Shown piece after piece: positions 7,252 through 58,386 of a DNA stretch of 64,000 nucleotides. Source of the DNA: a virus; the IMG/VR virus record IMGVR_UViG_3300045988_156245; one strand, 5' to 3'. The notes under the pieces were generated by a model. That model was not told the origin of the DNA. It saw only the letters and a program-made list of their open reading frames with translations, and ran no database searches. Within the stretch, counting starts at the first letter, position 1, and every line of letters begins with the position of its first letter. Made by a program: the position numbers and the translations under genes.

Positions 7252-7272
7252 TTATTTTCTCCTTTCTCTCTT

Positions 7273-7560
7273 TTAATTTAATAATATATCAACCAAAGTA
7301 TTATCTGATTGATTATAATTAAATTTTATATAATTTATTTTTATATTATCAAACTCTAAAACTCCAGTAGAACCAGTCTTAAAAACAACTTCATTACTTT
7401 CATTTTTATTTAAAGGTAATGCTATATATACAATTTGGTCTGCTAAAGTTTGTATTCTAAAATGTTTGATATTATAATTTTCTAAATCCGTAAAAATGAT
7501 ATCACCCGCTTTAAAAGGTCCTTGAACCTGAATGAAACCATTATTATCACCGTGTAACAT
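7273..7560 (-). CDS. hypothetical tail-module protein (95 aa)
   Basis: ORF tightly packed between baseplate-region genes, with RBS. Confidence 0.5.
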   Translation of the reverse strand: MLHGDNNGFIQVQGPFKAGDIIFTDLENYNIKHFRIQTLADQIVYIALPLNKNESNEVVFKTGSTGVLEFDNIKINYIKFNYNQSDNTLVDILLN

Positions 7561-7573
7561 TTTTTATACCTCC

Positions 7574-8263
7574 TTAATATTTATAATTCATAATAAAAGA
7601 GGTTTTTGTATTTTGTTGATTAAAAACAAAACCTATAAAACTAATATTGTAATCATCATAAATTTTATAATAATTACTAGGACCAATTTTAATATCTTCA
7701 TTATTTAAAACAAAAAAGATATTTTCATCTCCTTCAATAGTAAGCTCTCTAATTGAAGTCATTGTACTATCTCCAAGTACACTTCCTATTAAATTATTTA
7801 CTATTCTTATCTCTAAATTATCAATAGATAAAACATGAGAAACATAATTATTAGATGTTTCAACTTGAAAGATAACTTGATTACATGCTTTTTCTGGAGA
7901 AAAAATAATTTCATATTTTTTCACATTGTTAGTTTTATCTTGAATCCCACTTTCTAAATTTAATTTTCTAAAGATAATATCATTATCAGCTAATTCTCCT
8001 TCAGAATTATAACTTAATAATATATTTTTATCTGTATCAGATGGTACTAATTCAAAATAAAGATAATAACATTTACCAACTTCGAATTGCTTACCATTTT
8101 CTAGTTGAATAACTGTATAATATCCATTACTGTCTCTTGTGGTATTAATAATTTTATAATCTTCTAAAGCAATAGGCTTAGAATAATAATTATCTATATC
8201 TACTAAAGTATCATTATTAGTGCCTTGATATAAATGTTGTCCTATTTTATATGTTTTAGCCAC
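7574..8263 (-). CDS. hypothetical tail-module protein (229 aa)
   Basis: ORF in tail module; no recognisable motif. Confidence 0.5.
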   Translation of the reverse strand: MAKTYKIGQHLYQGTNNDTLVDIDNYYSKPIALEDYKIINTTRDSNGYYTVIQLENGKQFEVGKCYYLYFELVPSDTDKNILLSYNSEGELADNDIIFRKLNLESGIQDKTNNVKKYEIIFSPEKACNQVIFQVETSNNYVSHVLSIDNLEIRIVNNLIGSVLGDSTMTSIRELTIEGDENIFFVLNNEDIKIGPSNYYKIYDDYNISFIGFVFNQQNTKTSFIMNYKY

Positions 8264-13368: not shown

Positions 13369-13842
13369 TTATTCCGTTGGAGGGGTATTAGGCAATGCTC
13401 TTAAATCCTGCATTAATTTACCAATATAAGAATTACCATGTTCATCTCGATAATTTTTATATCTTCTCTCTATTCCTTCCAAACTGTAATCATCAATCCA
13501 TTTTTTTTCATAGCAAAAATAATGATGTTTTTCTGTTATCCACGTTTTTATATCATTTTTATCTGAATCAATTAACAAATCTACTTTATTAGCAATAATT
13601 GTTAAATACTCACAAATATGTTTTTGCTCTGCTGCTAAATCTTCTATTTTTTTATCTTCTTTTCTAATTTTTGCATATACATTTTCTCTTTCTTTATCTT
13701 CATTAAAACCTTTCTTAAAAAGTTGTCTTAATTTTGTCACAGCCCATTCTATAAAAGTAACAACCTCTTTAATGGCAATAGCTAACATAACAACAAACAT
13801 AAGTATTTCTGCTATAGAATATGTTGTTAATAGTTCTAACAT
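13369..13842 (-). CDS. membrane protein with one N-terminal TM segment
   Basis: 157 aa; ILMFVVMLAIAI TM then a charged coiled-coil-like region. Confidence 0.5.
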   Translation of the reverse strand: MLELLTTYSIAEILMFVVMLAIAIKEVVTFIEWAVTKLRQLFKKGFNEDKERENVYAKIRKEDKKIEDLAAEQKHICEYLTIIANKVDLLIDSDKNDIKTWITEKHHYFCYEKKWIDDYSLEGIERRYKNYRDEHGNSYIGKLMQDLRALPNTPPTE

Positions 13843-38523: not shown

Positions 38524-39636
38524 TTAAGATTTTTTAGCTGGCTTTTTGTTACGGCATACCTTGCATATACTATAAAAGCCGTCACGACTCGTTTTATTTT
38601 TAGAAAAGAATTTATTATGAGCTAATTTAATTTCTCCACATCTTGAACATTTTTTCCATTGACCTTTTTCTTCTTCTGTATAATGCCAGATTAAATAATC
38701 TTCTACCGCCTTCTCCGCAATTAATTTTGGAATTTTATTTCTCCATAAAGATGATAAATATTCAACAGTATAAGTCATATTGTATTTTTCTTGTAACAAT
38801 TGTTGTATTTCTATATTCTGTTTACCATCTATTTTATATATCATTAAATCATAATATAGGGGATAATCAAATTTTAGAGTTCTGTCAACTAAATCTTCTA
38901 AGTCTTTCATTAAATAATAAGAATCACTGCTAAATTTATCAAAACAATCTTCTTTTAATTTACCATAATTGCACAATAATGCAGAAATATGTTTTGGATT
39001 AAAAAATGAAATTAATCCATCATTATGAGGTATACCATTCTCATCTATTGAAAATTTATCACTAAAATCTATTTTACTAAAACTTTTAATAGCATTAACA
39101 CTATACATTGGTGGTTTATATGCATTTTTTATTACGTATTGGTCTTTACGCATTTCTATAATTTGCTTTTTTAATAAATATTTTTTCTTACCTCTTGCAT
39201 TTTTAGCTTTTTCTTCTACTTTTTCTATTGCATCTCTAAGGTCTTTTAAAGCGGGGATTTCCGCCACATCTTTCTCTGTAATTTCAAATTTTGGTTTAAA
39301 AATAATATTTTTATCATTTGCAATAATATTATAGATACCATCTTCGCCATTTTCAAATTTACCTACAAGTCCTTCAAAAGACATCTCTCTTTCATTTACT
39401 GTTACCATTCTATTGTCAGTTAATATCTTTTTCTTTTTTCTTTCTTCTTTATCCATTGCAAATACTATATAATCTGTTAATATACTTATATATCTTTTTG
39501 AAAGTTTTTCAGGAGGCGTTTCAGCTATAATCTTTTTTACTAATTCATTGCGGGCTTCCGGTGTTTCAAGCGTATAATCTAGCTTTAATCTGCCATCATC
39601 GGCCACCGCCGCATTTTCATACATTGTCTCTGTCAT
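38524..39636 (-). CDS. hypothetical protein with C-terminal zinc ribbon; first gene of late operon
   Basis: 370 aa; C-terminal CSRCGEIK...DGFYSICKVC motif common in phage DNA-binding/HNH-associated zinc ribbons. Confidence 0.5.
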   Translation of the reverse strand: MTETMYENAAVADDGRLKLDYTLETPEARNELVKKIIAETPPEKLSKRYISILTDYIVFAMDKEERKKKKILTDNRMVTVNEREMSFEGLVGKFENGEDGIYNIIANDKNIIFKPKFEITEKDVAEIPALKDLRDAIEKVEEKAKNARGKKKYLLKKQIIEMRKDQYVIKNAYKPPMYSVNAIKSFSKIDFSDKFSIDENGIPHNDGLISFFNPKHISALLCNYGKLKEDCFDKFSSDSYYLMKDLEDLVDRTLKFDYPLYYDLMIYKIDGKQNIEIQQLLQEKYNMTYTVEYLSSLWRNKIPKLIAEKAVEDYLIWHYTEEEKGQWKKCSRCGEIKLAHNKFFSKNKTSRDGFYSICKVCRNKKPAKKS

Positions 39637-39704: not shown

Positions 39705-39733
39705 ATTATAACACAAAATTTTTTCTTTGTCAA
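39705..39733 (-). promoter_or_regulatory. consensus promoter of the minus-strand structural operon
   Basis: reverse complement reads TTGACA-aagaaaaaattttgtgt-TATAAT (N17, TGn). Confidence 0.6.
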
Positions 39734-41312: not shown

Positions 41313-41462
41313 TATATTCTTTATCTCTTGATAGGTAAGATGATACCATAGAGACAGATAGTATAAGTGTTTGTAATTATATATAAATAATATGATATGA
41401 TAATAATGTTATCTATATACTGTTCAGAATAAAAGAACAAATGCTATATATAGCTATTGCGT

Positions 41463-41502
41463 CGGGCCGTGGACATTGTTCCTTGTTCCTGTCCACGGGC
41501 CG
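41463..41502 (+). other. conserved GTGGACA hairpin, copy 1
   Basis: stem ccgtggaca/tgtccacgg plus basal cgg/ccg, 14-nt loop ttgttccttgttcc. Confidence 0.7.
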
Positions 41503-41520
41503 TCTTTACCATAGGTAAAA

Positions 41521-41753
41521 TTGCACAAAAATTTTTGAATTGAAACGTTTTTATTTGTGCAATATGCACAATTCCCACAAAGAACATACGTTTGTCAATA
41601 GGCAAATTGCACAAAAATGTGGGGATAAAAACGTTTCAATCCTGTGCAATTTGTACAAATTGCACAAAACAGTTTTAGTGCAATTTTACCAACTTCCGGC
41701 ACTTTGCACAAAAAGTATCAAAAGCTTTAGAGTTATTTTTGTGCAATTTGCAC
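41521..41753. repeat. cluster of at least 8 TTGCACAAA / TTTGTGCAA boxes
   Basis: forward copies at 41521, 41607, 41659, 41704; reverse at 41554, 41644, 41738; variant ttgtacaaa at 41650. Confidence 0.75.
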
Positions 41754-41827
41754 TCTTGACAAAGCCAAAGGTTTGGTTCTAAGGCTAAGATTAAGCACTC
41801 AAGAGCAGAGCAATACACTACATCACA

Positions 41828-41856
41828 TTGACAAGAACCACAAGAAGTATTATAAT
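41828..41856 (+). promoter_or_regulatory. perfect consensus promoter
   Basis: TTGACA-N17-TATAAT. Confidence 0.65.
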
Positions 41857-41889: not shown

Positions 41890-42114
41890 ATGATAACTTT
41901 ACAATTTACACTATTCAGTACAACAGGTAAATACAAACCAGTAACTACTTTAATAAAGGTTGATAGTGTGCAACAGTACAATGAGAATAAACATAAATAT
42001 CAACAAAGAGCAATCACTAAAATGTGTGCAGAAAAACATACTACTTGGTGGGCATTAAAGAGCAACGGTTTTACAAAATTAAAAGTAAGGGTTTATCCTA
42101 AAAATAATAGTTGA
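41890..42114 (+). CDS. hypothetical protein (74 aa)
   Basis: ATG after gagaggag RBS, downstream of the promoter at 41828. Confidence 0.55.
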   Translation: MITLQFTLFSTTGKYKPVTTLIKVDSVQQYNENKHKYQQRAITKMCAEKHTTWWALKSNGFTKLKVRVYPKNNS

Positions 42115-43182: not shown

Positions 43183-43352
43183 GACTTTTTTTGAAAAAAT
43201 CCTGAGAAAAATTGCACAAAAAAGATACTGAATTTTTGTTACTATTTGCTATTGATTTTAAAAGTCAATAGTAAATATTAACAAAAATTTTGCTGTAAAC
43301 TTTATCTGTTTTTGTGCAAATTGCTAAAGTTAAAAAACTTTTGTAAAAACTA

Positions 43353-43381
43353 TAGACAAAACCAAAAAAAAGCTGTATAAT
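43353..43381 (+). promoter_or_regulatory. promoter with conserved leader
   Basis: TAGACA-N17-TATAAT; leader acataagataaagaaaggg plus hairpin 43405-43422. Confidence 0.5.
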
Positions 43382-43437
43382 GTTTACATAAGATAAAGAA
43401 AGGGAGCGACCAAGGGGTCGCTGATAGGTAAAACAAA

Positions 43438-43713
43438 ATGATGAATCTTACAGAAAGAATTAAAAAAGTTGAAGAAATTAGCAGACAGTTACAAATAGCA
43501 TACCCACAATATAGTAATAAAGATATTGAATCATTTAATTTGAATTGTATAAAATCAATTGGAGATTTTGCTTTTATTGCTATTTTTGCTAATGTAGACT
43601 GTTATACAATAACTTTATATAACTCAATAGGGTTTAAAAAAATAGAAATAGAAAAAAATGATATTGATTTTCAATACCTTTATAAAATAATAGAAATATT
43701 TATGGAAAGATAA
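43438..43713 (+). CDS. hypothetical protein (91 aa)
   Basis: ORF behind the conserved leader. Confidence 0.6.
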   Translation: MMNLTERIKKVEEISRQLQIAYPQYSNKDIESFNLNCIKSIGDFAFIAIFANVDCYTITLYNSIGFKKIEIEKNDIDFQYLYKIIEIFMER

Positions 43714-44460: not shown

Positions 44461-44740
44461 TGACTAACAGAAGTTAGTCTTGACTAACTGTTATTAGTAT
44501 TATCTAACTATAGTTAGTTTAGTCTAATTTTAATTAGTGATGTCTAACTATGGTTAGTCTAGACTAACTGAAGTTAGAAGTGTCAAACTTTAGTTACTAT
44601 AGGCTAACTTTGATTGGTTGTTTGAAACTCAGGTTAGTATAGGCTAACCGCAGTTAAGTGTTTGAAACTCTTGTTAGGTGTAACTAACCAGAGTTAGTAT
44701 AGGCTAACTCAAATTAGTTATTTGAAACTCTTGTTTTATT
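44461..44740. repeat. array 1: 14 phased 20-bp units with CTAAC-N4-GTTAG palindromes
   Basis: exact 20-bp register from 44461; arms conserved, centres and spacers variable; 40-bp super-period in the right half. Confidence 0.9.
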
Positions 44741-44814: not shown

Positions 44815-44998
44815 AAACTGATTAAAAAACATCAAGTTGATTGATGTTTTTTATCCCATAAAATAAATCAAGTTAGTTGATGTTTTTTAATCAGTAAAAT
44901 ATATCAAATTCCTTGATATATTTTAATTTGAAATATTTTTATTTATTTTTGTGCAAATTGTACAAAAATTCAATGTAAATTTTGTGCAATATTCCCCC

Positions 44999-45027
44999 TT
45001 GCAATTATACACCGTAGGGTGTATAAT
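44999..45027 (+). promoter_or_regulatory. promoter with conserved leader
   Basis: TTGCAA-N17-TATAAT; leader acataagataaagaaagg plus hairpin 45052-45068. Confidence 0.55.
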
Positions 45028-45083
45028 GTATACATAAGATAAAGAAAGGAACACCCCACAAGGGGGTGGAAAGGTAAAACATT

Positions 45084-45368
45084 ATGAACAAAAATTATTC
45101 AATTGAAAAAGACAATCCATATTACAGGGAGATAGTCTGCCTTGAGATAATAGGCGAGCATATCGACGAATCCGACAAGTGTTTCTTATGTTATCAGAGA
45201 AAAGTATGGGAAGAAGTTGAGGATGGAGAAATAGAACATATGGGATTTGAACCTATTTGTTCATTAGATGAACCAATACCTAACAAAAATATTCCAACCC
45301 TCACTGTTAGTAGTAGTGAAATTGAGGATATTGAAGAAAATGATAAATATGTATGGGTAGCAAAATAA
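45084..45368 (+). CDS. hypothetical acidic protein (94 aa)
   Basis: ORF behind the conserved leader. Confidence 0.6.
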   Translation: MNKNYSIEKDNPYYREIVCLEIIGEHIDESDKCFLCYQRKVWEEVEDGEIEHMGFEPICSLDEPIPNKNIPTLTVSSSEIEDIEENDKYVWVAK

Positions 45369-49122: not shown

Positions 49123-49136
49123 TAAAAAATCAATAG

Positions 49137-49167
49137 GCAAGTTGCACAAAATGTGACTTGCTTTTTT
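49137..49167 (+). terminator. terminator
   Basis: gcaagt/acttgc stem (loop carries a TTGCACAAA box) then tttttt. Confidence 0.5.
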
Positions 49168-49182
49168 GTGCAAAATTACTAC

Positions 49183-49211
49183 TTGACAAAGTGCGGCGGA
49201 TGTGCTATAAT
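49183..49211 (+). promoter_or_regulatory. promoter of candidate small RNA
   Basis: TTGACA-N17-TATAAT; the -10 context atgtgcTATAAT is identical to the promoter at 53770. Confidence 0.55.
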
Positions 49212-49217
49212 AAAATG

Positions 49218-49309
49218 GGACTCTATAGACTCATATATTTCAGATGTTTGTCGGCTCGTCGATGGTTGAGACGAGCCGAGTTGTCAAGCCGAACATACGT
49301 TCGGGTTTT
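49218..49309 (+). ncRNA. candidate small RNA with hairpin variant copy 4 and CCGAAC terminator
   Basis: 10-bp stem tcggctcgtc/gacgagccga (49251-49279), then ccgaac-atac-gttcgg plus tttt (49289-49309); no RBS. Confidence 0.4.
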
Positions 49310-49385
49310 AAATTGATTAAAATACATCAAGAACCTTGACTTATTTTATCCCATAAAAAACATCAAGTTGATTGATGTATTTTAA

Positions 49386-49640
49386 TCTAACAAAAGTTAG
49401 ACACAACTAATTCTAGTTAGGCTTGACTAACCCCAGTTAGCCTAAACTAACTAAAGTTAGTTACTATTAATTTAAGTTAGCTGTAACTAACTTTTGTTAG
49501 CCACCTCTCATTAAAGTTTTGTTAAACTAATTTTAGTTAGATTGCCCCTAATTCAAGTTAGTTATAACTAACGCAAGTTAGACTTCACAAATAAAAGTTA
49601 GTTAAAACTAACAGCAGTTAGATTAAACTATCGTCATTTT
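49386..49640. repeat. array 2: 13 phased 20-bp units with CTAAC-N4-GTTAG palindromes
   Basis: left arms at 49387, 49407, 49427, 49447, 49467, 49487, 49507, 49527, 49548, 49568, 49588, 49608, 49628; GTTAG arm nearly invariant; alternate units read aACTAAY. Confidence 0.9.
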
Positions 49641-49747
49641 GCACAAAATTTTCAATTGAAAAATTTTGTATGATTGCACAAAAAATAATATCCCCAACCC
49701 CGCATTTTTGTGCAATCTGCTAAAGTTAATTAAAATGATAACAAAGT

Positions 49748-49849: not shown

Positions 49850-50332
49850 ATGATTATCGAATTTGCAACTATTATCTTTTTTATTTGTAGTTTAATCAAT
49901 GTAATGTTATCTACATTAAAAACCATTTTAACAGTTAAAGCGTCAAAAGGTGTGGCAACCATTATTAATGCAATAACTTATGGCTTTTATGCTATTGTAG
50001 TAAAACAGTTAGCAAGTTTAGACTTAATAACTACTGTTACAGTTACTATTGTAACTAATATAATAGGGGTGTATGTTTCAATGTGGTTATTAGAAAAAAC
50101 AAAAAAAGATTGTTTATGGAAAATATCCGTTACTACTAAAGATAATACTTTAGTAGAAAAATTAGAAAAGTTTAGTATTTCTTATGTAATGAACCCAGTT
50201 CAGTATAAAAAACAAACTTATTATAATATTGATGTTTTTAGTGAAAATCAAAAGGATAGTTCTATTATTGAAAACATACTAAAAGAATATAAAGTAAAAT
50301 ACAATATTACAGAAATTAATAAAAAATTTTAA
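49850..50332 (+). CDS. UPF0316 (YebE-like, DUF5698/DUF2179) membrane protein
   Basis: 160 aa; 3 TM N-terminal half with LSTLKTILTVKASKGVATIINAITYGFYAIVV resembling B. subtilis YebE, small soluble C-terminal domain. Confidence 0.55.
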   Translation: MIIEFATIIFFICSLINVMLSTLKTILTVKASKGVATIINAITYGFYAIVVKQLASLDLITTVTVTIVTNIIGVYVSMWLLEKTKKDCLWKISVTTKDNTLVEKLEKFSISYVMNPVQYKKQTYYNIDVFSENQKDSSIIENILKEYKVKYNITEINKKF

Positions 50333-50459: not shown

Positions 50460-51437
50460 ATGAACAAGAAATTTTATTTAACAGTAGACACCGAAACGGC
50501 AACAATTCCATTTGCAAATCAGATTTGCAAAAATGCTAATCAAAAACAGAAAATTGCGATTGCTAAACCTTTAGTATATGATATTGGTTGGAGCATTACC
50601 GACAGACAAGGTAATATCGTAAAAACAGAAAACTTTTTAGTTCAGGAAACGTTCTTTGTTCCTAACGTTTTCAATACTGCTTATTACAGAGATAAAAGAC
50701 CTATTTATATGGAATTGTTAGAAAAAGGCGAGATTAAAGTTGATTGCTGGAATAACATTATGAAGTTATTCATCGCAGACCTTGAAAAAGTTGATATTTC
50801 AACTGCCTACAATGCGTGTTTTGATTTTAAAAAGGCAATACCATTTACTGAACGTTATATCAAGGCTTTATATTCAAGTGACTATCAAAAATGGGAAGAT
50901 AGACAAAAAAAGAGTTGTGAGGACATTCTTAATAATCGCAGTAATGCTAAAAATGAAGAATATCTAAATCCATATTTTGAATTAAGGGGCGTACAGTACC
51001 CTATAGCCGACTTATGGTGTATTGCTTGTGAACGTTTAATAAACATCAATAAATACAGAAACTTTTGTCTTGATAGAGGTTATGTAACAAACAGTGTAGT
51101 ATTTTTCAAATCATCAGCCGAAACATCATTTCAATATTTAATGAACAACTATGATTTTATCGAGGACCACACCGCATTATCGGACGCACTAATTGAAAGC
51201 CAGATTTTAACAAAAGCCTTGAAAAAGGGCAAAATTGAGCCTACATTATATGCGTTTCCGTTTAGGGATTTAGGTTCAACTATAGATTATGCAATAGACA
51301 CAAACCATAAATATATTGAGCCATTATACGAATTGTTATTAAAATATATTGAAAATAATGATGGTTTTGACAAAGGTGGGGCATATTGGAAGAAGATTAT
51401 GAAAGAACTTGAAAAACTTGAAAATGCAAACTTTTAA
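50460..51437 (+). CDS. DEDDh (DnaQ-like) 3'-5' exonuclease
   Basis: 325 aa from the ATG at 50460; ExoI LTVDTETA, ExoII YNACFDF, ExoIII HTALSDA. Confidence 0.7.
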   Translation: MNKKFYLTVDTETATIPFANQICKNANQKQKIAIAKPLVYDIGWSITDRQGNIVKTENFLVQETFFVPNVFNTAYYRDKRPIYMELLEKGEIKVDCWNNIMKLFIADLEKVDISTAYNACFDFKKAIPFTERYIKALYSSDYQKWEDRQKKSCEDILNNRSNAKNEEYLNPYFELRGVQYPIADLWCIACERLININKYRNFCLDRGYVTNSVVFFKSSAETSFQYLMNNYDFIEDHTALSDALIESQILTKALKKGKIEPTLYAFPFRDLGSTIDYAIDTNHKYIEPLYELLLKYIENNDGFDKGGAYWKKIMKELEKLENANF

Positions 51438-52413: not shown

Positions 52414-52580
52414 CAATGTTACATATTGTATGAGTGCGGGGGAGCCGGTATTAGTGACTTTTACCTAAATACAATATGTGATATGTCACGTACTATGTTA
52501 CATATTATAATATGTGATATATCACACGCAAGGTCACATATTACAATATGTGATATGTTACATACAATATGTGACCTTAA
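52405..52580. repeat. cluster of ATATGTGAT / ATCACAT direct and inverted repeats with 7-bp phasing
   Basis: acaatatgtgatatgt(c/t)ac at 52471, 52543, partial 52564; tgtgatatatcaca palindrome 52513-52526; tcacatatt-ac-aatatgtga palindrome 52534-52553. Confidence 0.8.
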
Positions 52581-52634: not shown

Positions 52635-52663
52635 ATTATACCACTTTTTCACTCCGATGTCAA
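52635..52663 (-). promoter_or_regulatory. antisense consensus promoter d
   Basis: reverse complement TTGACA-tcggagtgaaaaagtgg-TATAAT (N17, TGn). Confidence 0.6.
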
Positions 52664-52712
52664 TAGTAATTTTGCACAAAAATTTTTTCCCAAAATTGTG
52701 AAATTTTACTAA

Positions 52713-53633: not shown

Positions 53634-53769
53634 TATAAAAGGGCGAAAAGGGGGCAACATCCTCCCCTTTTTGCCCAAATTGTTTAAAAAATATAAAAAA
53701 ATTAGTAGAAATGCACAAAAATTGTTAAAAAAATACAGTTTTTGTGTATTTTTTTGTGAAAATTTACTA

Positions 53770-53798
53770 TTGACAAATAGTAACAAATGTGCTATAAT
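53770..53798 (+). promoter_or_regulatory. promoter of candidate GC-rich RNA
   Basis: TTGACA-N17-TATAAT (atgtgcTATAAT). Confidence 0.6.
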
Positions 53799-53803
53799 TG
53801 TCG

Positions 53804-53968
53804 GAGCCTGAGCGAGCGACAGGCTCCGAGTCCCAGTCCCATACTCTATATGGCGAATTTTTCTGAGTGTTTGAACTTGCATATTTTTTTCTACCGCGTC
53901 CCGAAATCCTTTACCGGCATCTCCGCATATGGCCGCCAATTCTGAGTGTTTTGAGTCCCCTATTTTTT
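53804..53968 (+). ncRNA. candidate structured non-coding RNA (GC-rich island)
   Basis: about 165 nt, visibly GC-rich against the AT-rich background; 5' hairpin cggagcctg/caggctccg (53802-53828); internal duplication atatggc(c)g..aatt(t)tctgagtgttt(t)ga at 53848 and 53927; ends in tattttttaa; no plausible ORF on the plus strand. Confidence 0.4.
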
Positions 53969-54935: not shown

Positions 54936-55140
54936 CACTCTACTTAATTTCACTTAATTTTATATAATTCTACTCAATTTTACTCAGTTTTATTTATTTT
55001 CTGCTCAAATTTTATTTAATCTTTACTTAATCTTACTTATTTTCCACTCAATTTTTTATTTACCTTCACTTAATTTTATCTTATCTACTCTACTTAATTT
55101 AACTTACTTTAATTTTATCTTATCTTTATCCCACTTTCCC
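54936..55140. repeat. degenerate array of about 11 (C/T)ACT(T/C)AATTTTA-like direct repeats
   Basis: ctctacttaattt, cacttaatttta, tactcaatttta, actcagtttta, gctcaaatttta, tacttaat, cttacttatttt, cactcaatttttt, cacttaatttta, tacttaattta, cttactttaatttta at 10-22 bp intervals. Confidence 0.7.
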
Positions 55141-55681: not shown

Positions 55682-55799
55682 GGTAACACTTCATTAACAT
55701 TTTTAATTAAACTTGGTACACTTTATTAACAATCATTTAAGCAAAGTTGGTACACTTTTTTAACATTTATTTAAAATTTTTTGGTACACTTTATTAACA
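55682..55799. repeat. four 17-18-bp iteron-like direct repeats, 33-34 bp phasing
   Basis: ggtaacacttcattaaca 55682, ggtacactttattaaca 55715, ggtacacttttttaaca 55749, ggtacactttattaaca 55783. Confidence 0.85.
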
Positions 55800-55805
55800 T
55801 TTTTC

Positions 55806-56432
55806 TTAAATAATTTTTGTTTTAACTTCTTCTTCATTAAAATTTAAAGTATTATTAACACTGTCTAAATAATATTTAGTTTTATTGCCTTCCATTTGAG
55901 CATGGTATTCAATTAAATCTAATTTTTTTAAAACAAAAAGTATATCTAATATAGTTTGATTACTAGCCCCTTTATTTTTAGTACTTAAACCTAAAATAGC
56001 TTTAATATAGCTTAAAGAAAAAGGTCCAGATTTTTCTTCGTTTTTATACCATATCTTAATTAAAATTGCTAATACAGATAAACTTCTTTCTTTTAATGTA
56101 TTAACTAAAACCCTAACAGTATTAATAGGCAATAGAGTAGCAATATTACTATCTAATACAACTAATTCATACATCTTTACTTCTTCATTATAAATAATAA
56201 GACCACTATCTAATAAATTATGAAAATTTTTTGATGCAGTTTGTCTTGTTATTCCTAATCCTTCTGCAAGATTAACAAATTTACAATCTTCCTTTTTTAC
56301 AAATCTAGCTTCCATATCTGGAAAAGTTACAGAAATAGATTGCAAATAACCATACATTCTGTCTGAATAGGTTCTACTAGATAAATAATGCTTATCACTA
56401 GGCATTTGTCTTGAATTTTTTTCTATTTTCAT
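55806..56432 (-). CDS. double winged-helix DNA-binding protein (RepA-like initiator or repressor candidate)
   Basis: 208 aa; two wHTH-like segments NLAEGLGITRQTASKNFHNLLDSGLIIY and YIKAILGLSTKNKGASNQTILDILFVLKKLDLIEY; flanked by inverted iteron arrays. Confidence 0.45.
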   Translation of the reverse strand: MKIEKNSRQMPSDKHYLSSRTYSDRMYGYLQSISVTFPDMEARFVKKEDCKFVNLAEGLGITRQTASKNFHNLLDSGLIIYNEEVKMYELVVLDSNIATLLPINTVRVLVNTLKERSLSVLAILIKIWYKNEEKSGPFSLSYIKAILGLSTKNKGASNQTILDILFVLKKLDLIEYHAQMEGNKTKYYLDSVNNTLNFNEEEVKTKII

Positions 56433-57276: not shown

Positions 57277-58386
57277 ATGACAACTATTATACAAACTGGA
57301 ACTAAATATGATTTATATGATTCAAGTATACAGACACATCAGTCTTTACCTGCGGGAATCTATAAGGTAACTTTTAACCCTCAGTCAGGACATCAATTAT
57401 TATATGTTGCGGATAAGAATGATATTAAAGAAAAAATTTATGGCGTTCATACAAAGAAAGTTGAAAAAGTATTAAATACATTTCGTAACTTCAATAGAAG
57501 CGAAGGAGTGTTATTAAGCGGCGATAAAGGTATTGGTAAATCTTTATTCACTAAATTATTAACAAATGCGGTAATTGATATGGGATTACCAGTTATTTAT
57601 GTTAATGAAGCTAGTCCAAATTTAGGGGATTATATTGATAGTATTCCTACTGAATGTATGATTTTATTTGATGAATTTGATAAAACTTTTAGTTCTCCTT
57701 ATGAACAAAATGATTTATTATCACTTTTTGACGGAACTTCTCGTAATAAAAAGTTATTTGTAATTACTTGTAATAATTTAGATAGCCTTAGTTCATTTTT
57801 GGTAAATAGACCAGGAAGATTTCATTATCATATCTGCTTTAAATATCCTACATCAGAAGATATTGTAAAATATTTAAAAGATAAGTTAGATGAAAAATAT
57901 TGGGGCGAGATACCAAAAGTAGTAAAGCGAGCAACCGCAATTAAAACAAACTATGATACTTTAAGAGCAATAGCTTATGAACTTCAGCAAGGTTGGTCTT
58001 TTGAAGAAGCAATAGAAGATTTAAACATTGATAAAGGTAATAAAACAATTTATTTTAATATATGCTATACGCAAAAAAATAAAGAACGTCATAGTCTTAA
58101 AGTACCATTTGTTCCTTCTAAAGTAGAAGCGGAAAAGGTAAAATTATCACTTACAGATAAATTGGGAAATTTTATTGGTGAAGCAATATTTTCTACTGAT
58201 GATTTTTACTTTGATATAAATGATAATGATTTTAAACTTAATATAGAAAAAGCAACTTATCAGTTTAGCACAATTAAACGTGGTATATATATGTCACAGG
58301 ATGGAGAAGAAATTGTAACTGACAAAGACAAAGAAAATGCAGTTATCACTGAAATTGTTATTACCAATATATCAGAAGATTTTTGA
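57277..58386 (+). CDS. classic-clade AAA ATPase
   Basis: 369 aa; Walker A LLSGDKGIGKS, Walker B MILFDEFD, sensor-1 VITCNN, SRH NRPGRFHY; about 130-aa C-terminal domain of unknown type. Confidence 0.75.
   Translation: MTTIIQTGTKYDLYDSSIQTHQSLPAGIYKVTFNPQSGHQLLYVADKNDIKEKIYGVHTKKVEKVLNTFRNFNRSEGVLLSGDKGIGKSLFTKLLTNAVIDMGLPVIYVNEASPNLGDYIDSIPTECMILFDEFDKTFSSPYEQNDLLSLFDGTSRNKKLFVITCNNLDSLSSFLVNRPGRFHYHICFKYPTSEDIVKYLKDKLDEKYWGEIPKVVKRATAIKTNYDTLRAIAYELQQGWSFEEAIEDLNIDKGNKTIYFNICYTQKNKERHSLKVPFVPSKVEAEKVKLSLTDKLGNFIGEAIFSTDDFYFDINDNDFKLNIEKATYQFSTIKRGIYMSQDGEEIVTDKDKENAVITEIVITNISEDF

What the first reader, a model, noticed from the sequence alone, without database searches (positions are those of the whole stretch)
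41521..41753. TTGCACAAA box family: at least 8 copies in 230 bp and further pairs beside many early promoters
TTGCACAAA and its complement TTTGTGCAA occur at 41521, 41554, 41607, 41644, 41659, 41704 and 41738, with the variant ttgtacaaa at 41650. Further copies are at 43212, 43311, 44950-44990 (tttgtgcaa-a-ttgtacaaa, a near-perfect 19-bp palindrome, plus tttgtgcaat), 49142/49164, 49638-49715, 52674 and 53727-53750. All are intergenic and usually lie 40-80 bp upstream of a promoter. The paired inverted arrangement looks like an operator for a dimeric regulator. The dense 41.5 kb cluster, which the ORF track mis-reads as an 80-aa ORF, looks like a high-capacity binding region such as a master control region or sink.
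Basis: seen in the sequence. Interest (0 to 1): 0.65.

Follow-up and report, generated by a model that had tools for sequence, protein, structure and literature searches.

The report
Operator boxes shared with host bacteria
The 9-base box repeated about 20 times between this gut phage's early genes is the strong half of a protein-binding operator set against strong promoters; the same operator occurs in unrelated phages and at more than 100 promoters of gut Clostridia, so the phage probably links part of its early programme to a bacterial regulator that is still unidentified.

Summary
TTGCACAAA occurs 17 times against 1.06 expected, and 16 copies lie between genes at 41.5-52.7 kb. Each box is the strong half of a 19-bp pseudo-palindrome, TTTGTGCAA-n-TTGCACAAA. 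Operators come in inward-facing pairs with gaps of 16 or 26 bp, one helical turn apart. In the phage clade, 122 of 341 boxes lie exactly 8 or 9 nt upstream of a near-consensus TTGACA -35. This is a DNA operator for a dimeric protein, most likely a repressor. The same module, with the same weak outer half, also occurs in the terminal repeats of unrelated phi29-like phages and in 55-60% GC elements. It is also found in at least 120 promoter regions of bacterial genomes, about 90% of them Clostridia. No protein is shared among these phages. A sister phage carries 17 copies of the Clostridial Rex operator in the equivalent early region. My best reading is a host-encoded regulator whose operator the phage has adopted. 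The binder is not identified. A TetR-family protein is the only recurrent neighbour, and its own sites differ. The origin and RNA-hairpin readings are unlikely.

The parts
41511..41529 (.). Operator O1. The strong half is TTGCACAAA at 41521-41529; the weak outer half is cataggtaa. It pairs with O2 (8-mer gap 26).
41554..41572 (.). Operator O2, a near-complete palindrome: TTTGTGCAA-t-ATGCACAAT.
41597..41615 (.). Operator O3. The strong half is TTGCACAAA at 41607-41615. It is preceded by tgtCAAtaGGCAAa, a mirrored -35-like TGTCAA 8 nt away.
41641..41668 (.). Operators O4a and O4b. Three half-sites sit at 9-bp spacing (CCTGTGCAA-t-TTGTACAA-a-TTGCACAAA). The stretch 41650-41668 matches the 19-bp palindrome with no mismatch.
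41675..41693 (.). Weak operator O5 (TTAGTGCAA, one mismatch).
41694..41712 (.). Operator O6. The strong half is TTGCACAAA at 41704-41712. It pairs with O7 (gap 27).
41738..41756 (.). Operator O7, TTTGTGCAA-t-TTGCACTCT. It abuts the TTGACA at 41756-41761, 9 nt after the box.
41828..41856 (+). Consensus sigma-A-type promoter (TTGACA-17-TATAAT) of the first operon to the right of the cluster (gene 41890-42114 onward).
41461..41505 (+). GC-rich hairpin just left of O1. It is probably the terminator of the leftward-lying early genes. The same 'terminator next to operator' layout occurs in relatives.
   Evidence: L016, L043, L051, L072
43202..43220 (.). Operator upstream of the minus-strand promoter 43182-43154.
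43311..43329 (.). Operator TTTGTGCAA-a-TTGCTAAAG, 33 nt upstream of promoter 43353-43381 (gene 43438-43713).
44948..44966 (.). Perfect 19-bp palindromic operator TTTGTGCAAATTGTACAAA.
44981..45027 (+). Operator TTTGTGCAA at 44981-44989, then 9 nt, then promoter TTGCAA-17-TATAAT at 44999-45027 (gene 45084-45368 onward).
49132..49211 (+). Complete module. It reads caatagGCAAg-TTGCACAA-N16-TTGTGCAA, then 9 nt, then TTGACA-17-TGcTATAAT. It drives an RNA of about 95 nt that ends at terminator 49289-49312.
49629..49725 (.). Three operators (boxes 49639+, 49674+, 49707-). The last two form a gap-26 module upstream of the promoter of genes 49850-50332 and 50460-51437.
52635..52680 (-). Minus-strand unit: TTTGTGCAA (52680->52672), then 8 nt, then TTGACA-17-TGnTATAAT (52663->52635). 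No ORF follows it.
53711..53798 (+). Degenerate boxes ATGCACAAA (53711) and TTTGTGAAA (53753), then 8 nt, then consensus promoter 53770-53798. The transcript starts with a GC hairpin.

Best explanation
The boxes are half-sites of a composite DNA operator.

Shown:
- Each TTTGTGCAA is the strong half of a 19-bp 9-1-9 pseudo-palindrome, TTTGTGCAA-n-TTGCACAAA. That is the size and symmetry expected for one dimer of a helix-turn-helix protein.
- Two such operators usually sit with their strong halves facing inward. Their centres are 33 or 43 bp apart, about 3 or 4 helical turns, so they lie on the same face of the DNA.
- The outer weak half of the promoter-proximal operator abuts or overlaps the upstream edge of a near-consensus -35 hexamer.

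Inferred:
- A bound pair of dimers blocks or traps RNA polymerase at otherwise very strong sigma-A-type promoters. The protein therefore acts as a repressor of a subset of early promoters. Box-free consensus promoters in the same region escape this control.
- The protein is most likely host-encoded, a regulator conserved in gut Clostridia. The phage has adopted its operator, so that part of the early programme depends on the state or amount of that regulator. The controlled units include the exonuclease-like operon and several short, hairpin-capped RNAs.
- The 41.5-kb cluster of 8-9 operators is the strongest control point. It would also bind much of the regulator as phage DNA copies accumulate.
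For: Enrichment and placement in the window:
- The box occurs 17 times against 1.06 expected, and 16 copies are intergenic in the early block.

Operator structure:
- The extended motif is TTTGTGCAA-nn-TG-n-C-n-A. In 334 unique phage boxes, T at +10 is 92% and G at +11 is 64%.
- The full 19-bp palindrome, with up to 3 mismatches, has 6 sites (12 strand matches against 0.52 expected). Two of them are perfect.

Pair spacing:
- In the clade, start-to-start distances are 24 (31 cases) or 34 (about 19 cases).
- In an unbiased IMG/VR scan, gap 16 has 37 cases and gap 26 has 23. Gaps 17 and 27 have 8 and 6. Every other gap from 10 to 32 has 6 or fewer.

Phase with promoters:
- 122 of 341 unique boxes have a TTGACA (at most one mismatch) exactly 8 (96) or 9 (26) nt downstream. 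Random positions give 2.7%. Of the 125 boxes with a -35 at 7-10 nt, 86 also have a -10 at 16-18 nt spacing.
- Five window promoters show this layout.

Conservation:
- The boxes occur in relatives whose anchor protein is 53-66% identical, and only on the early-gene side of that gene.

Evidence for a host-encoded binder:
- The same module lies 17-58 nt from both termini of complete 13-kb phi29-like genomes.
- It also lies in the divergent promoter regions of 55-60% GC elements, again 9 nt from the -35.
- No protein is shared between the phi29-like phages and this clade by blastp or jackhmmer.
- 113 of 124 bacterial modules lie outside long ORFs, against 36% of random positions. 90 have a gene starting within 250 bp and pointing away.
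- The neighbouring genes are diverse housekeeping genes, including in isolate chromosomes.
- Bacterial modules carry the same weak outer half at positions the search pattern did not fix: T12 52%, G13 43%, C15 44%, A17 59%.

Precedent inside the family:
- Relative L063 has 17 matches to the Clostridial Rex operator in its early region against 0.31 expected. Eight of them form a cluster about 2.4 kb from the sigma gene, the same position as the window cluster. The consensus is given in PMC8457756.
Against: - No binding protein is identified, and nothing here shows binding.
- Only part of the phage genome is in the window, so a phage regulator encoded elsewhere cannot be excluded.
- Box types differ between sister clades (TTGCACAA type, Rex type, and the L031 22-bp palindrome). 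Co-evolving phage regulators would also produce that pattern.
- A strict 8-9 nt distance to the -35, putting the operator centre near -43, is also the geometry of class II activators.
- Many bacterial hits come from metagenome bins, which can contain phage contigs.
- The chance expectation for the bacterial scan (about 10-25 hits) is my estimate from base composition. It is not a computed control.
- Box presence upstream of orthologous genes is not conserved.
Confidence: 0.5

Rival explanations
1. The boxes are operators of a phage-encoded early regulator. The regulator would be a Cro-, CI- or p4-like protein made from the early region or from outside the window. It would shut off or switch early promoters, and the dense cluster would be its main control region.
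For: - The boxes are confined to the early region and conserved across the clade.
- Sister clades carry different palindromes at equivalent places, as expected for co-evolving regulator-operator pairs.
- The early region holds many small ORFs of unknown function, and two paralogs have a weak HTH_52 match.
- Homologs of these paralogs sometimes have a module 200-300 bp upstream (L169, L180, L051, L072).
- Only 64 kb of a genome of at least about 130 kb was available (a near-identical homolog lies on a 129-kb contig).
Against: - The same module, including its weak half and spacing, occurs in complete 13-kb phi29-like genomes, in GC-rich elements, and at chromosomal promoters in Clostridia. None of these shares a detectable protein with this phage.
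- The sister clade's box is the host Rex operator.
- Pfam, PHROGs and NCBIfam give no confident DNA-binding regulator in the early block.
- The first gene after the cluster folds confidently (pLDDT 88) into a beta-beta-alpha-alpha-alpha-beta domain with no helix-turn-helix motif and no PDB match.
Confidence: 0.25
2. The bound protein is an activator rather than a repressor. It would work like Mu Mor/C or lambda CI at PRM: a dimer centred near -43 touches sigma region 4 or the alpha subunit and boosts a class of promoters.
For: - The box-to--35 distance is strictly 8 or 9 nt in 122 of 341 boxes. This puts the operator centre at about -43/-44, the classic class II position.
- A few boxed promoters in the window have imperfect hexamers: TTGCAA at 44999, TAGACA at 43353, and a poor -10 after 41756.
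Against: - Most boxed promoters have consensus TTGACA and TATAAT, often with an extended TG, and should not need activation.
- In bacterial genomes the distance to the -35 differs. The commonest is 6 nt, and many others occur. In several loci the two boxes flank the promoter elements of an ECF sigma gene. That fits occlusion better than recruitment.
- Modules are often symmetric, with -35-like hexamers on both sides.
Confidence: 0.15
3. The dense 41.5-kb cluster is a replication origin, or an iteron or partition site. The boxes would be iterons for an initiator, next to the AT-rich stretch 41330-41450 and at the point where GC skew changes sign.
For: - There are eight to nine sites in 250 bp beside an AT-rich segment and a strong hairpin.
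- The sign of the GC skew changes at about 40 kb.
- In phi29-like phages the module lies inside the terminal repeats, where protein-primed origins are.
Against: - The skew change coincides with the switch in gene orientation, so it is not independent evidence.
- The same boxes occur at at least 7 other intergenic places, phase-locked to promoters, and at chromosomal promoters of bacteria.
- The sites are mostly inverted pairs, not regularly spaced direct repeats.
- A better origin candidate exists at 54.9-55.8 kb. It has about 14 phased ACTTAATTT repeats and 34-bp iterons repeated 3.4 times. It lies beside the 208-aa wHTH gene and an AAA+ / DnaC-like ATPase.
Confidence: 0.07
4. The inverted boxes act in RNA, as stems of hairpins such as terminators, processing sites or riboregulators.
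For: - The pairs could form 9-11 bp stems. One pair (49135-49163) is listed by the terminator scan.
Against: - The two preferred loop sizes differ by exactly 10 nt. That is a property of the DNA helix and has no meaning for RNA loops.
- Only the arrangement TTGCACAA...TTGTGCAA is preferred, although the everted order would pair equally well.
- The box sequence is invariant instead of covarying.
- The boxes lie upstream of promoters, not inside the transcripts they control.
- No Rfam family matches.
Confidence: 0.03

Closest known systems
Spo0A boxes of Bacillus phage phi29 (from memory: Meijer et al. 2005; Castilla-Llorente et al. 2006)
   Same: A host transcription factor has binding sites at early promoters and near both genome ends of a phage, so that lytic development depends on host state. 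Here the module sits against early promoters of a large siphovirus-like phage. It also lies 17-58 nt from both termini of phi29-like gut phages.
   Different: The sequence is not a 0A box: TTTGTCRAA has 2 copies in the window against 3.1 expected. The sites are palindromic pairs, not tandem repeats. The binding protein is unknown.
Rex operators (Clostridial consensus TTGTTAANNNNTTAACAA; PMC8457756, citing Ravcheev 2012)
   Same: Both are palindromic operators of a host repressor, present in many copies in the early region of this phage family. Relative L063 has 17 such sites, including a cluster of 8 at the position equivalent to the window cluster.
   Different: The window has no enrichment of Rex-type sites: 3 against 1.4 expected. 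The window palindrome is 9-1-9 (TTGTG-N7-CACAA). Rex is TTGTG/TTGTT-N8-CACAA/AACAA, so the geometry differs by one base pair.
Cooperative operator pairs of temperate-phage repressors (lambda OR/OL; P1 C1 and mycobacteriophage L5 dispersed operators)
   Same: There are multiple 17-19 bp operators. Pairs are phased on one face of the helix. Sites overlap promoters. Many copies are dispersed over a block of the genome.
   Different: No repressor gene lies beside the sites, and no integrase or lysogeny module was seen in the window. The spacing is 33/43 bp rather than about 24 bp. The sites are not oriented with transcription as L5 stoperators are. The same operator also occurs outside the phage lineage and in bacterial chromosomes.
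TetR-family regulator operators
   Same: In 13 bacterial loci the module lies 0-40 nt from the start of one conserved TetR-family gene, divergent from a class III aminotransferase / FGGY kinase operon. A pair of dimers on a long palindromic operator is a common TetR-family mode.
   Different: Those 13 sites have a different outer half (CTACAAAT). No TetR-family gene is present in the window, in the phage loci, or among IMG/VR contigs for this orthologue. Binding is untested.

Membership tests
Rex operator (ROP) site | An 18-bp palindrome, TTGTGAANNNNTTCACAA or the Clostridial form TTGTTAANNNNTTAACAA. | tested here: not met
   TTGTNAANNNNTTNACAA with at most 1 mismatch has 3 matches against 1.44 expected, and none is in the box regions. 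The feature is met in relative L063 (17 against 0.31).
Spo0A 0A box | TGTCGAA / TTTGTCRAA (consensus recalled from memory). | tested here: not met
   The window has 2 matches against 3.09 expected. The box differs from TTTGTCGAA by a CG-to-GC swap.
Palindromic operator of a dimeric helix-turn-helix protein | A two-fold symmetric site of 15-20 bp. | tested here: met
   The site is a 9-1-9 pseudo-palindrome. There are 6 sites with at most 3 mismatches, 2 of them perfect. The weak half is conserved in phages and in bacteria.
Palindromic operator of a dimeric helix-turn-helix protein | Cooperative pairs phased by whole helical turns. | tested here: met
   Gaps of 16 and 26 dominate in two independent data sets.
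Palindromic operator of a dimeric helix-turn-helix protein | Sequence-specific binding by a protein. | not testable with these tools
   This needs EMSA, DAP-seq or a pull-down.
Temperate-phage immunity switch (cI/cro type) | Operators lie between divergent repressor and cro-like genes, and the repressor is encoded by the phage. | tested here: not met
   No confident HTH regulator flanks the clusters. The gene after the cluster is not a helix-turn-helix protein. Only 64 kb was searched.
Iteron-type replication origin | Regularly spaced direct repeats beside an AT-rich unwinding element and an initiator gene. | tested here: inconclusive
   An AT-rich stretch is present. However, the sites are inverted pairs, are dispersed at promoters, and no initiator gene is adjacent. 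A better candidate lies at 54.9-55.8 kb.
TetR-family operator | The operator overlaps the promoter of the TetR-family gene that binds it. | tested here: inconclusive
   This holds in 13 of 120 bacterial loci. No such gene is in the phage, and those sites have a different outer half.
UP element (alpha-CTD site) | An A+T-rich sequence from -40 to -60 with no specific G/C positions. | tested here: not met
   G and C positions are invariant. The site occurs in inverted pairs and at variable distances in bacteria.

The most novel reading that the evidence does not exclude
A still unnamed global regulator of gut Clostridia has a 19-bp operator that several unrelated phage lineages have captured independently. 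These are the early promoters of a large siphovirus-like phage, the terminal repeats or origins of phi29-like podoviruses, and GC-rich mobile elements. A sister clade has captured Rex operators instead. These phages would read host physiology through host repressors. The multi-operator cluster could act as a copy-number-driven titration timer that releases the boxed promoters as phage DNA replicates.
Probability: 0.3. Interest if true: 0.8.

Novelty: new member of a known kind. Interest (0 to 1): 0.6.

Why it matters
Almost nothing is known about how phages of the dominant gut Clostridia time their gene expression or sense their hosts. This box provides a concrete, testable cis-element, and a 19-bp palindrome or 50-bp module can be used directly as bait to find the protein.

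If the binder is a host regulator, this would extend the phi29-Spo0A principle. In that case a virulent phage defers to a host master regulator. The extension would be to uncultured gut phage families, with the Rex-box arrays of the sister clade as a second and more readily interpretable example (sensing of redox state).

It would also define a regulon of more than 100 promoters in Clostridia for a regulator not yet described. If the binder is instead phage-encoded, the finding is an ordinary early-gene operator system.

Tried and rejected
- **Literature search for the box sequence:** searches returned only primer noise. The supplementary files of the C. thermocellum DAP-seq paper contain the 8-mers only as chance occurrences in peak sequences.
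- **Annotation of the early ORFs:** Pfam, PHROGs and NCBIfam on about 30 early ORFs gave no confident DNA-binding regulator.
- **The 74-aa product of the first gene after the cluster:** it has only near-identical homologs. Its model is confident but not a helix-turn-helix fold, and it has no PDB match.
- **Extending relatives' early regions with the 325-aa protein as anchor:** this returned only near-identical phages.
- **Cultured relative Enterococcus phage H1:** the 41 kb fetched around its sigma gene has no box enrichment (2 copies).
- **The phage sigma factor (38524-39636) as reader of the box:** rejected, because the boxes occur as inverted pairs upstream of sigma-A-type promoters and also in genomes that lack this sigma.
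- **Sigma-54 promoter (GGCA...TTGCA):** rejected, because the GG-to-GC spacing is 4 bp too short.
- **'TGCTAAAGTTAA' after boxes 43311 and 49707:** this is simply the weak half of the operator.
- **GC-rich hairpins directly after box-N8-TTGACA in relatives and at 41461-41505:** these are terminators of genes reading toward the operator, not promoter parts.
- **The TetR-family orthologue:** no relative was found in 2.9 million viral contigs.
- **Rfam and tRNA scans of the window:** both were empty.

Full report
**Context**

The window is 29% G+C. Positions 1-39.6 kb carry a minus-strand block of structural genes: terminase, portal and a 2895-aa protein. This block ends with a 370-aa phage sigma factor gene at 38524-39636, which matches phrog_5767. 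From 40 to 54 kb there is a plus-strand block of small ORFs with no known function. That block contains many perfect TTGACA-17-TATAAT promoters and Shine-Dalgarno sites, so the host is a Firmicute.

The closest public records are unannotated human faecal contigs. IMG/VR holds at least 138 related stretches, and the 80 fetched come mostly from contigs of 55-200 kb. The nearest cultured relatives have a sigma factor only 25-39% identical. They are large phages of Enterococcus, Brevibacillus, Geobacillus and Mammaliicoccus.

**The observation**

TTGCACAAA or its complement occurs 17 times, against 1.06 expected from shuffles. Sixteen copies lie in non-coding stretches between 41.5 and 52.7 kb. 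The seventeenth, at 20842, is inside a long ORF. The copies at '41644' and '53727-53750' are degenerate variants. The 80-aa ORF over the cluster is made of the boxes and has no ribosome-binding site.

**Anatomy**

I aligned 334 unique boxes from the window and 80 related loci. The motif extends outward as TTTGTGCAA-nn-TG-n-C-n-A, with T at +10 in 92% and G at +11 in 64%. This is a weak copy of the reverse complement. Each box is therefore the strong half of a 19-bp 9-1-9 pseudo-palindrome. Complete versions exist. The window has six sites with at most three mismatches, which is 12 strand matches against 0.52 expected. Two of them are perfect, at 41650-41668 and 44948-44966.

Boxes come mainly in pairs with the strong halves facing inward (TTGCACAA...TTGTGCAA). 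In the clade the start-to-start distance is 24 in 31 unique cases and 34 in about 19 cases.

I then scanned IMG/VR for the pair with any gap from 10 to 32. Gap 16 had 37 cases and gap 26 had 23. Gaps 17 and 27 had 8 and 6. No other gap had more than 6. The operator centres are therefore 33 or 43 bp apart, about three or four turns of the helix.

The everted order is not preferred at these distances. The two favoured gaps differ by exactly one DNA turn, and the box sequence does not covary. All this points to a protein reading DNA, not to an RNA hairpin.

**Relation to promoters**

Of 341 unique oriented boxes in the clade, 122 have a TTGACA (at most one mismatch) exactly 8 (96) or 9 (26) nt downstream. 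Random positions give 2.7%. Of the 125 boxes with a -35 at 7-10 nt, 86 also have a -10 at the right spacing.

In the window this layout is seen at five places:
- 41738, followed by TTGACA at 41756
- 44981, followed by TTGCAA at 44999
- 49165, followed by TTGACA at 49183
- 52680, followed by TTGACA at 52663 on the minus strand
- 53753, followed by TTGACA at 53770

The operator centre is then near -43/-44, and its weak half touches the -35. Many modules are symmetric, with a -35-like hexamer 8 nt outside the distal box as well.

Other perfect promoters in the same block have no box (46241, 46920, 47205, 47702, 52914). There are thus two classes of early promoter.

Some boxed promoters drive short RNAs that start with a stable hairpin instead of driving genes. 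In the window these are P49183 (to terminator 49289-49312), P53770 and P52663(-). In relatives such units often point against the neighbouring genes.

**Conservation**

The boxes occur in relatives whose sigma factor is 53-66% identical. They lie almost only on the early-gene side of that gene. Clusters of 4-7 boxes recur. Which gene carries a box is not conserved. For example, only 1 of 22 homologs of the 160-aa gene has a box upstream, against 15 of 24 homologs of the exonuclease-like gene. The 41 kb fetched around the sigma gene of Enterococcus phage H1 shows no box enrichment (2 copies).

**Who binds?**

The evidence points away from the phage. The IMG/VR scan found the module in other kinds of elements.

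- *Complete phi29-like podoviruses of about 13 kb and 50% G+C.* They encode a type B DNA polymerase, the Gp16 packaging ATPase, the phi29 capsid protein and the connector. A gap-26 module sits 17-58 nt from both physical ends, inside the terminal inverted repeat. Sequencing adapters flank the contig ends, so the ends are real.
- *Elements of 55-60% G+C.* The module lies in a divergent promoter region, interleaved with clade-specific 12-mers. It is again 9 nt from a -35.

Neither blastp nor iterative profile searches find any protein shared between the podoviruses and the window's clade.

A scan of one genome per bacterial species for TTGCACAAA-N14-TTTGTGCAA hit the limit of 120 loci. From base composition I estimate 10-25 hits by chance. 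That figure is an inference, not a computed control. Of the 80 listed records, 71 are Clostridia. They include Ruminococcus bromii ATCC 27255, the Hungatella hathewayi DSM 13479 chromosome and Anaerotignum neopropionicum.

In these loci 113 of 124 modules lie outside long ORFs, against 36% of random positions. Ninety have a gene starting within 250 bp and pointing away. Eighty-one of the 120 loci contain only the one module.

The neighbouring genes are diverse:
- a GntP permease and a GntR-FCD regulator
- carA
- a V-ATPase subunit
- ABC-transporter lipoproteins
- ECF sigma genes
- mobile elements

Crucially, positions that the search pattern did not fix show the same weak half as in the phages: T12 52%, G13 43%, C15 44% and A17 59%. 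This holds after removing phage-like loci and the TetR loci. The phage boxes and the bacterial promoter sites are therefore the same kind of site.

**A parallel within the family**

Relative L063 has a sigma factor 55% identical to the window's and lacks the box. Its early region instead has 17 matches to TTGTTAANNNNTTAACAA, against 0.31 expected. Eight of them form a cluster about 2.4 kb from the sigma gene, the same position as the window's cluster. That sequence is the Clostridial consensus of the host redox repressor Rex (PMC8457756). Relative L031 carries yet another palindrome. The window has no excess of Rex-type or Spo0A-type sites.

**Candidate binder**

The only regulator gene that recurs beside the module in bacteria is one TetR-family orthologue. 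It is present in 13 loci, with the module 0-40 nt from its start. It lies divergent from a class III aminotransferase / FGGY kinase operon.

This orthologue is absent from the window and from all phage loci. It has no relative in IMG/VR. Its own sites have a distinct outer half. It is a lead and nothing more.

The 208-aa winged-helix protein lies next to a separate iteron array and an AAA+ ATPase, and looks like a replication initiator. The 123/131-aa paralogs are 48% identical and are absent from the podoviruses.

**Mechanism**

Shown:
- the palindromic operators
- the helical phasing of pairs
- the contact of the operator with the -35 of consensus promoters
- the occurrence of the same site at bacterial promoters

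Inferred:
- Two dimers bind cooperatively and block RNA polymerase. The promoters are consensus and should not need help. In bacteria the distance to the -35 varies (most often 6 nt), and some modules straddle promoter elements.
- The binder is a host protein.

Speculative: the 41.5-kb cluster titrates the repressor as phage DNA copies rise, and so releases the boxed promoters.

An activator role, a phage-encoded binder and an origin function for the cluster remain possible. Their likelihood decreases in that order.

**Verdict**

The finding is real and is a cis-regulatory operator system, which is a known kind of thing. What is unusual is that the operator is shared with unrelated phages and with more than 100 promoters of gut Clostridia. 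The sister clade's use of Rex operators is also unusual. Interest is 0.6.

Noticed in passing
window 44464-44717 and 49387-49621: Two arrays hold about 8-10 copies each of a 14-bp palindrome, CTAAC-N4-GTTAG, with an exact 20-bp period. Each array lies just upstream of a group of TTGCACAAA boxes. The arrays are conserved in relatives L015, L017, L024 and L025. This is a second family of binding sites, of the centromere or iteron type.
   Followed up: partly
window 54941-55140 and 55686-55819: A likely replication origin. It has about 14 helically phased ACT(T/C)AATTT repeats and a 34-bp iteron (GGTACACTTTATTAACA) repeated 3.4 times. It lies next to the 208-aa winged-helix gene (55806-56432, minus strand) and the AAA+ / DnaC-like ATPase gene (57277-58386). 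GC skew changes sign at 54 and 58 kb.
   Followed up: partly
L063:3402-7983: A relative of this phage carries 17 copies of the Clostridial Rex operator (TTGTTAANNNNTTAACAA, at most 2 mismatches; 0.31 expected) in its early region. Eight of them are clustered at 7267-7677. This suggests redox-dependent control of phage early genes by host Rex.
   Followed up: partly
L128:1-125 and 13650-13774 (also L166, L107, L145 and others): Phi29-like gut podoviruses of about 13 kb have inverted terminal repeats of at least about 125 bp. The repeats carry the TTGCACAA-N26-TTGTGCAA module 17-58 nt from each physical end.
   Followed up: partly
window 49183-49312; 53770-53830; 52663-52400 (minus strand); L014:209, 4935, 5835; L016:3520; L020:4870; L076:8130: Box-controlled consensus promoters drive short transcripts that begin with a GC-rich hairpin. 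In relatives the start reads AAAUUUCG, then the hairpin, then CCGCC. No ORF follows, and the units are often convergent with the neighbouring early genes. They may be small or antisense RNAs.
   Followed up: partly
L223, L225, L232, L257, L258, L267, L303, L306, L307, L312, L316, L317, L323: A conserved divergent gene pair in gut Clostridia. A TetR-family regulator faces a class III aminotransferase plus an FGGY-type kinase, with the module over the regulator's promoter. The outer half-site there is CTACAAAT.
   Followed up: partly
L090, L109, L132, L152, L184; L211, L291, L310: These are elements with 49-58% G+C in the fetched stretches. In them the constant TTGCACAA/TTGTGCAA pair is interleaved with element-specific repeats (CACTGTTGCGTG, CCCTGTACCGTG, TACTTACGGAAGTATA). 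In most of them the region lies upstream of a small, apparently ribbon-helix-helix-like gene (my reading of the sequences, not a database match).
   Followed up: no
L031:5177-6670: Another relative carries four copies of a 22-bp perfect palindrome, TTGTTAGTTAATTAACTAACAA, in its early region in place of the box.
   Followed up: no
window 43382-43437 and 45028-45083: Two boxed promoters are followed by near-identical 5' leaders: acataagataaagaaagg, then a short GC hairpin, then aggtaaaaca, then ATG. This suggests duplicated promoter-leader cassettes.
   Followed up: no
window 52470-52567 and 44823-44927: Two further tandem repeats, each with a 36-bp unit. One has 2.7 copies and lies in the region transcribed from P52663(-). 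The other has 2.9 copies and lies between the first CTAAC array and boxes 44948-44989.
   Followed up: no
window 39705-39733 (minus strand): The phage sigma factor gene (38524-39636) has its own perfect TTGACA-17-TGnTATAAT promoter and no box. The host polymerase should therefore express it without box control.
   Followed up: no
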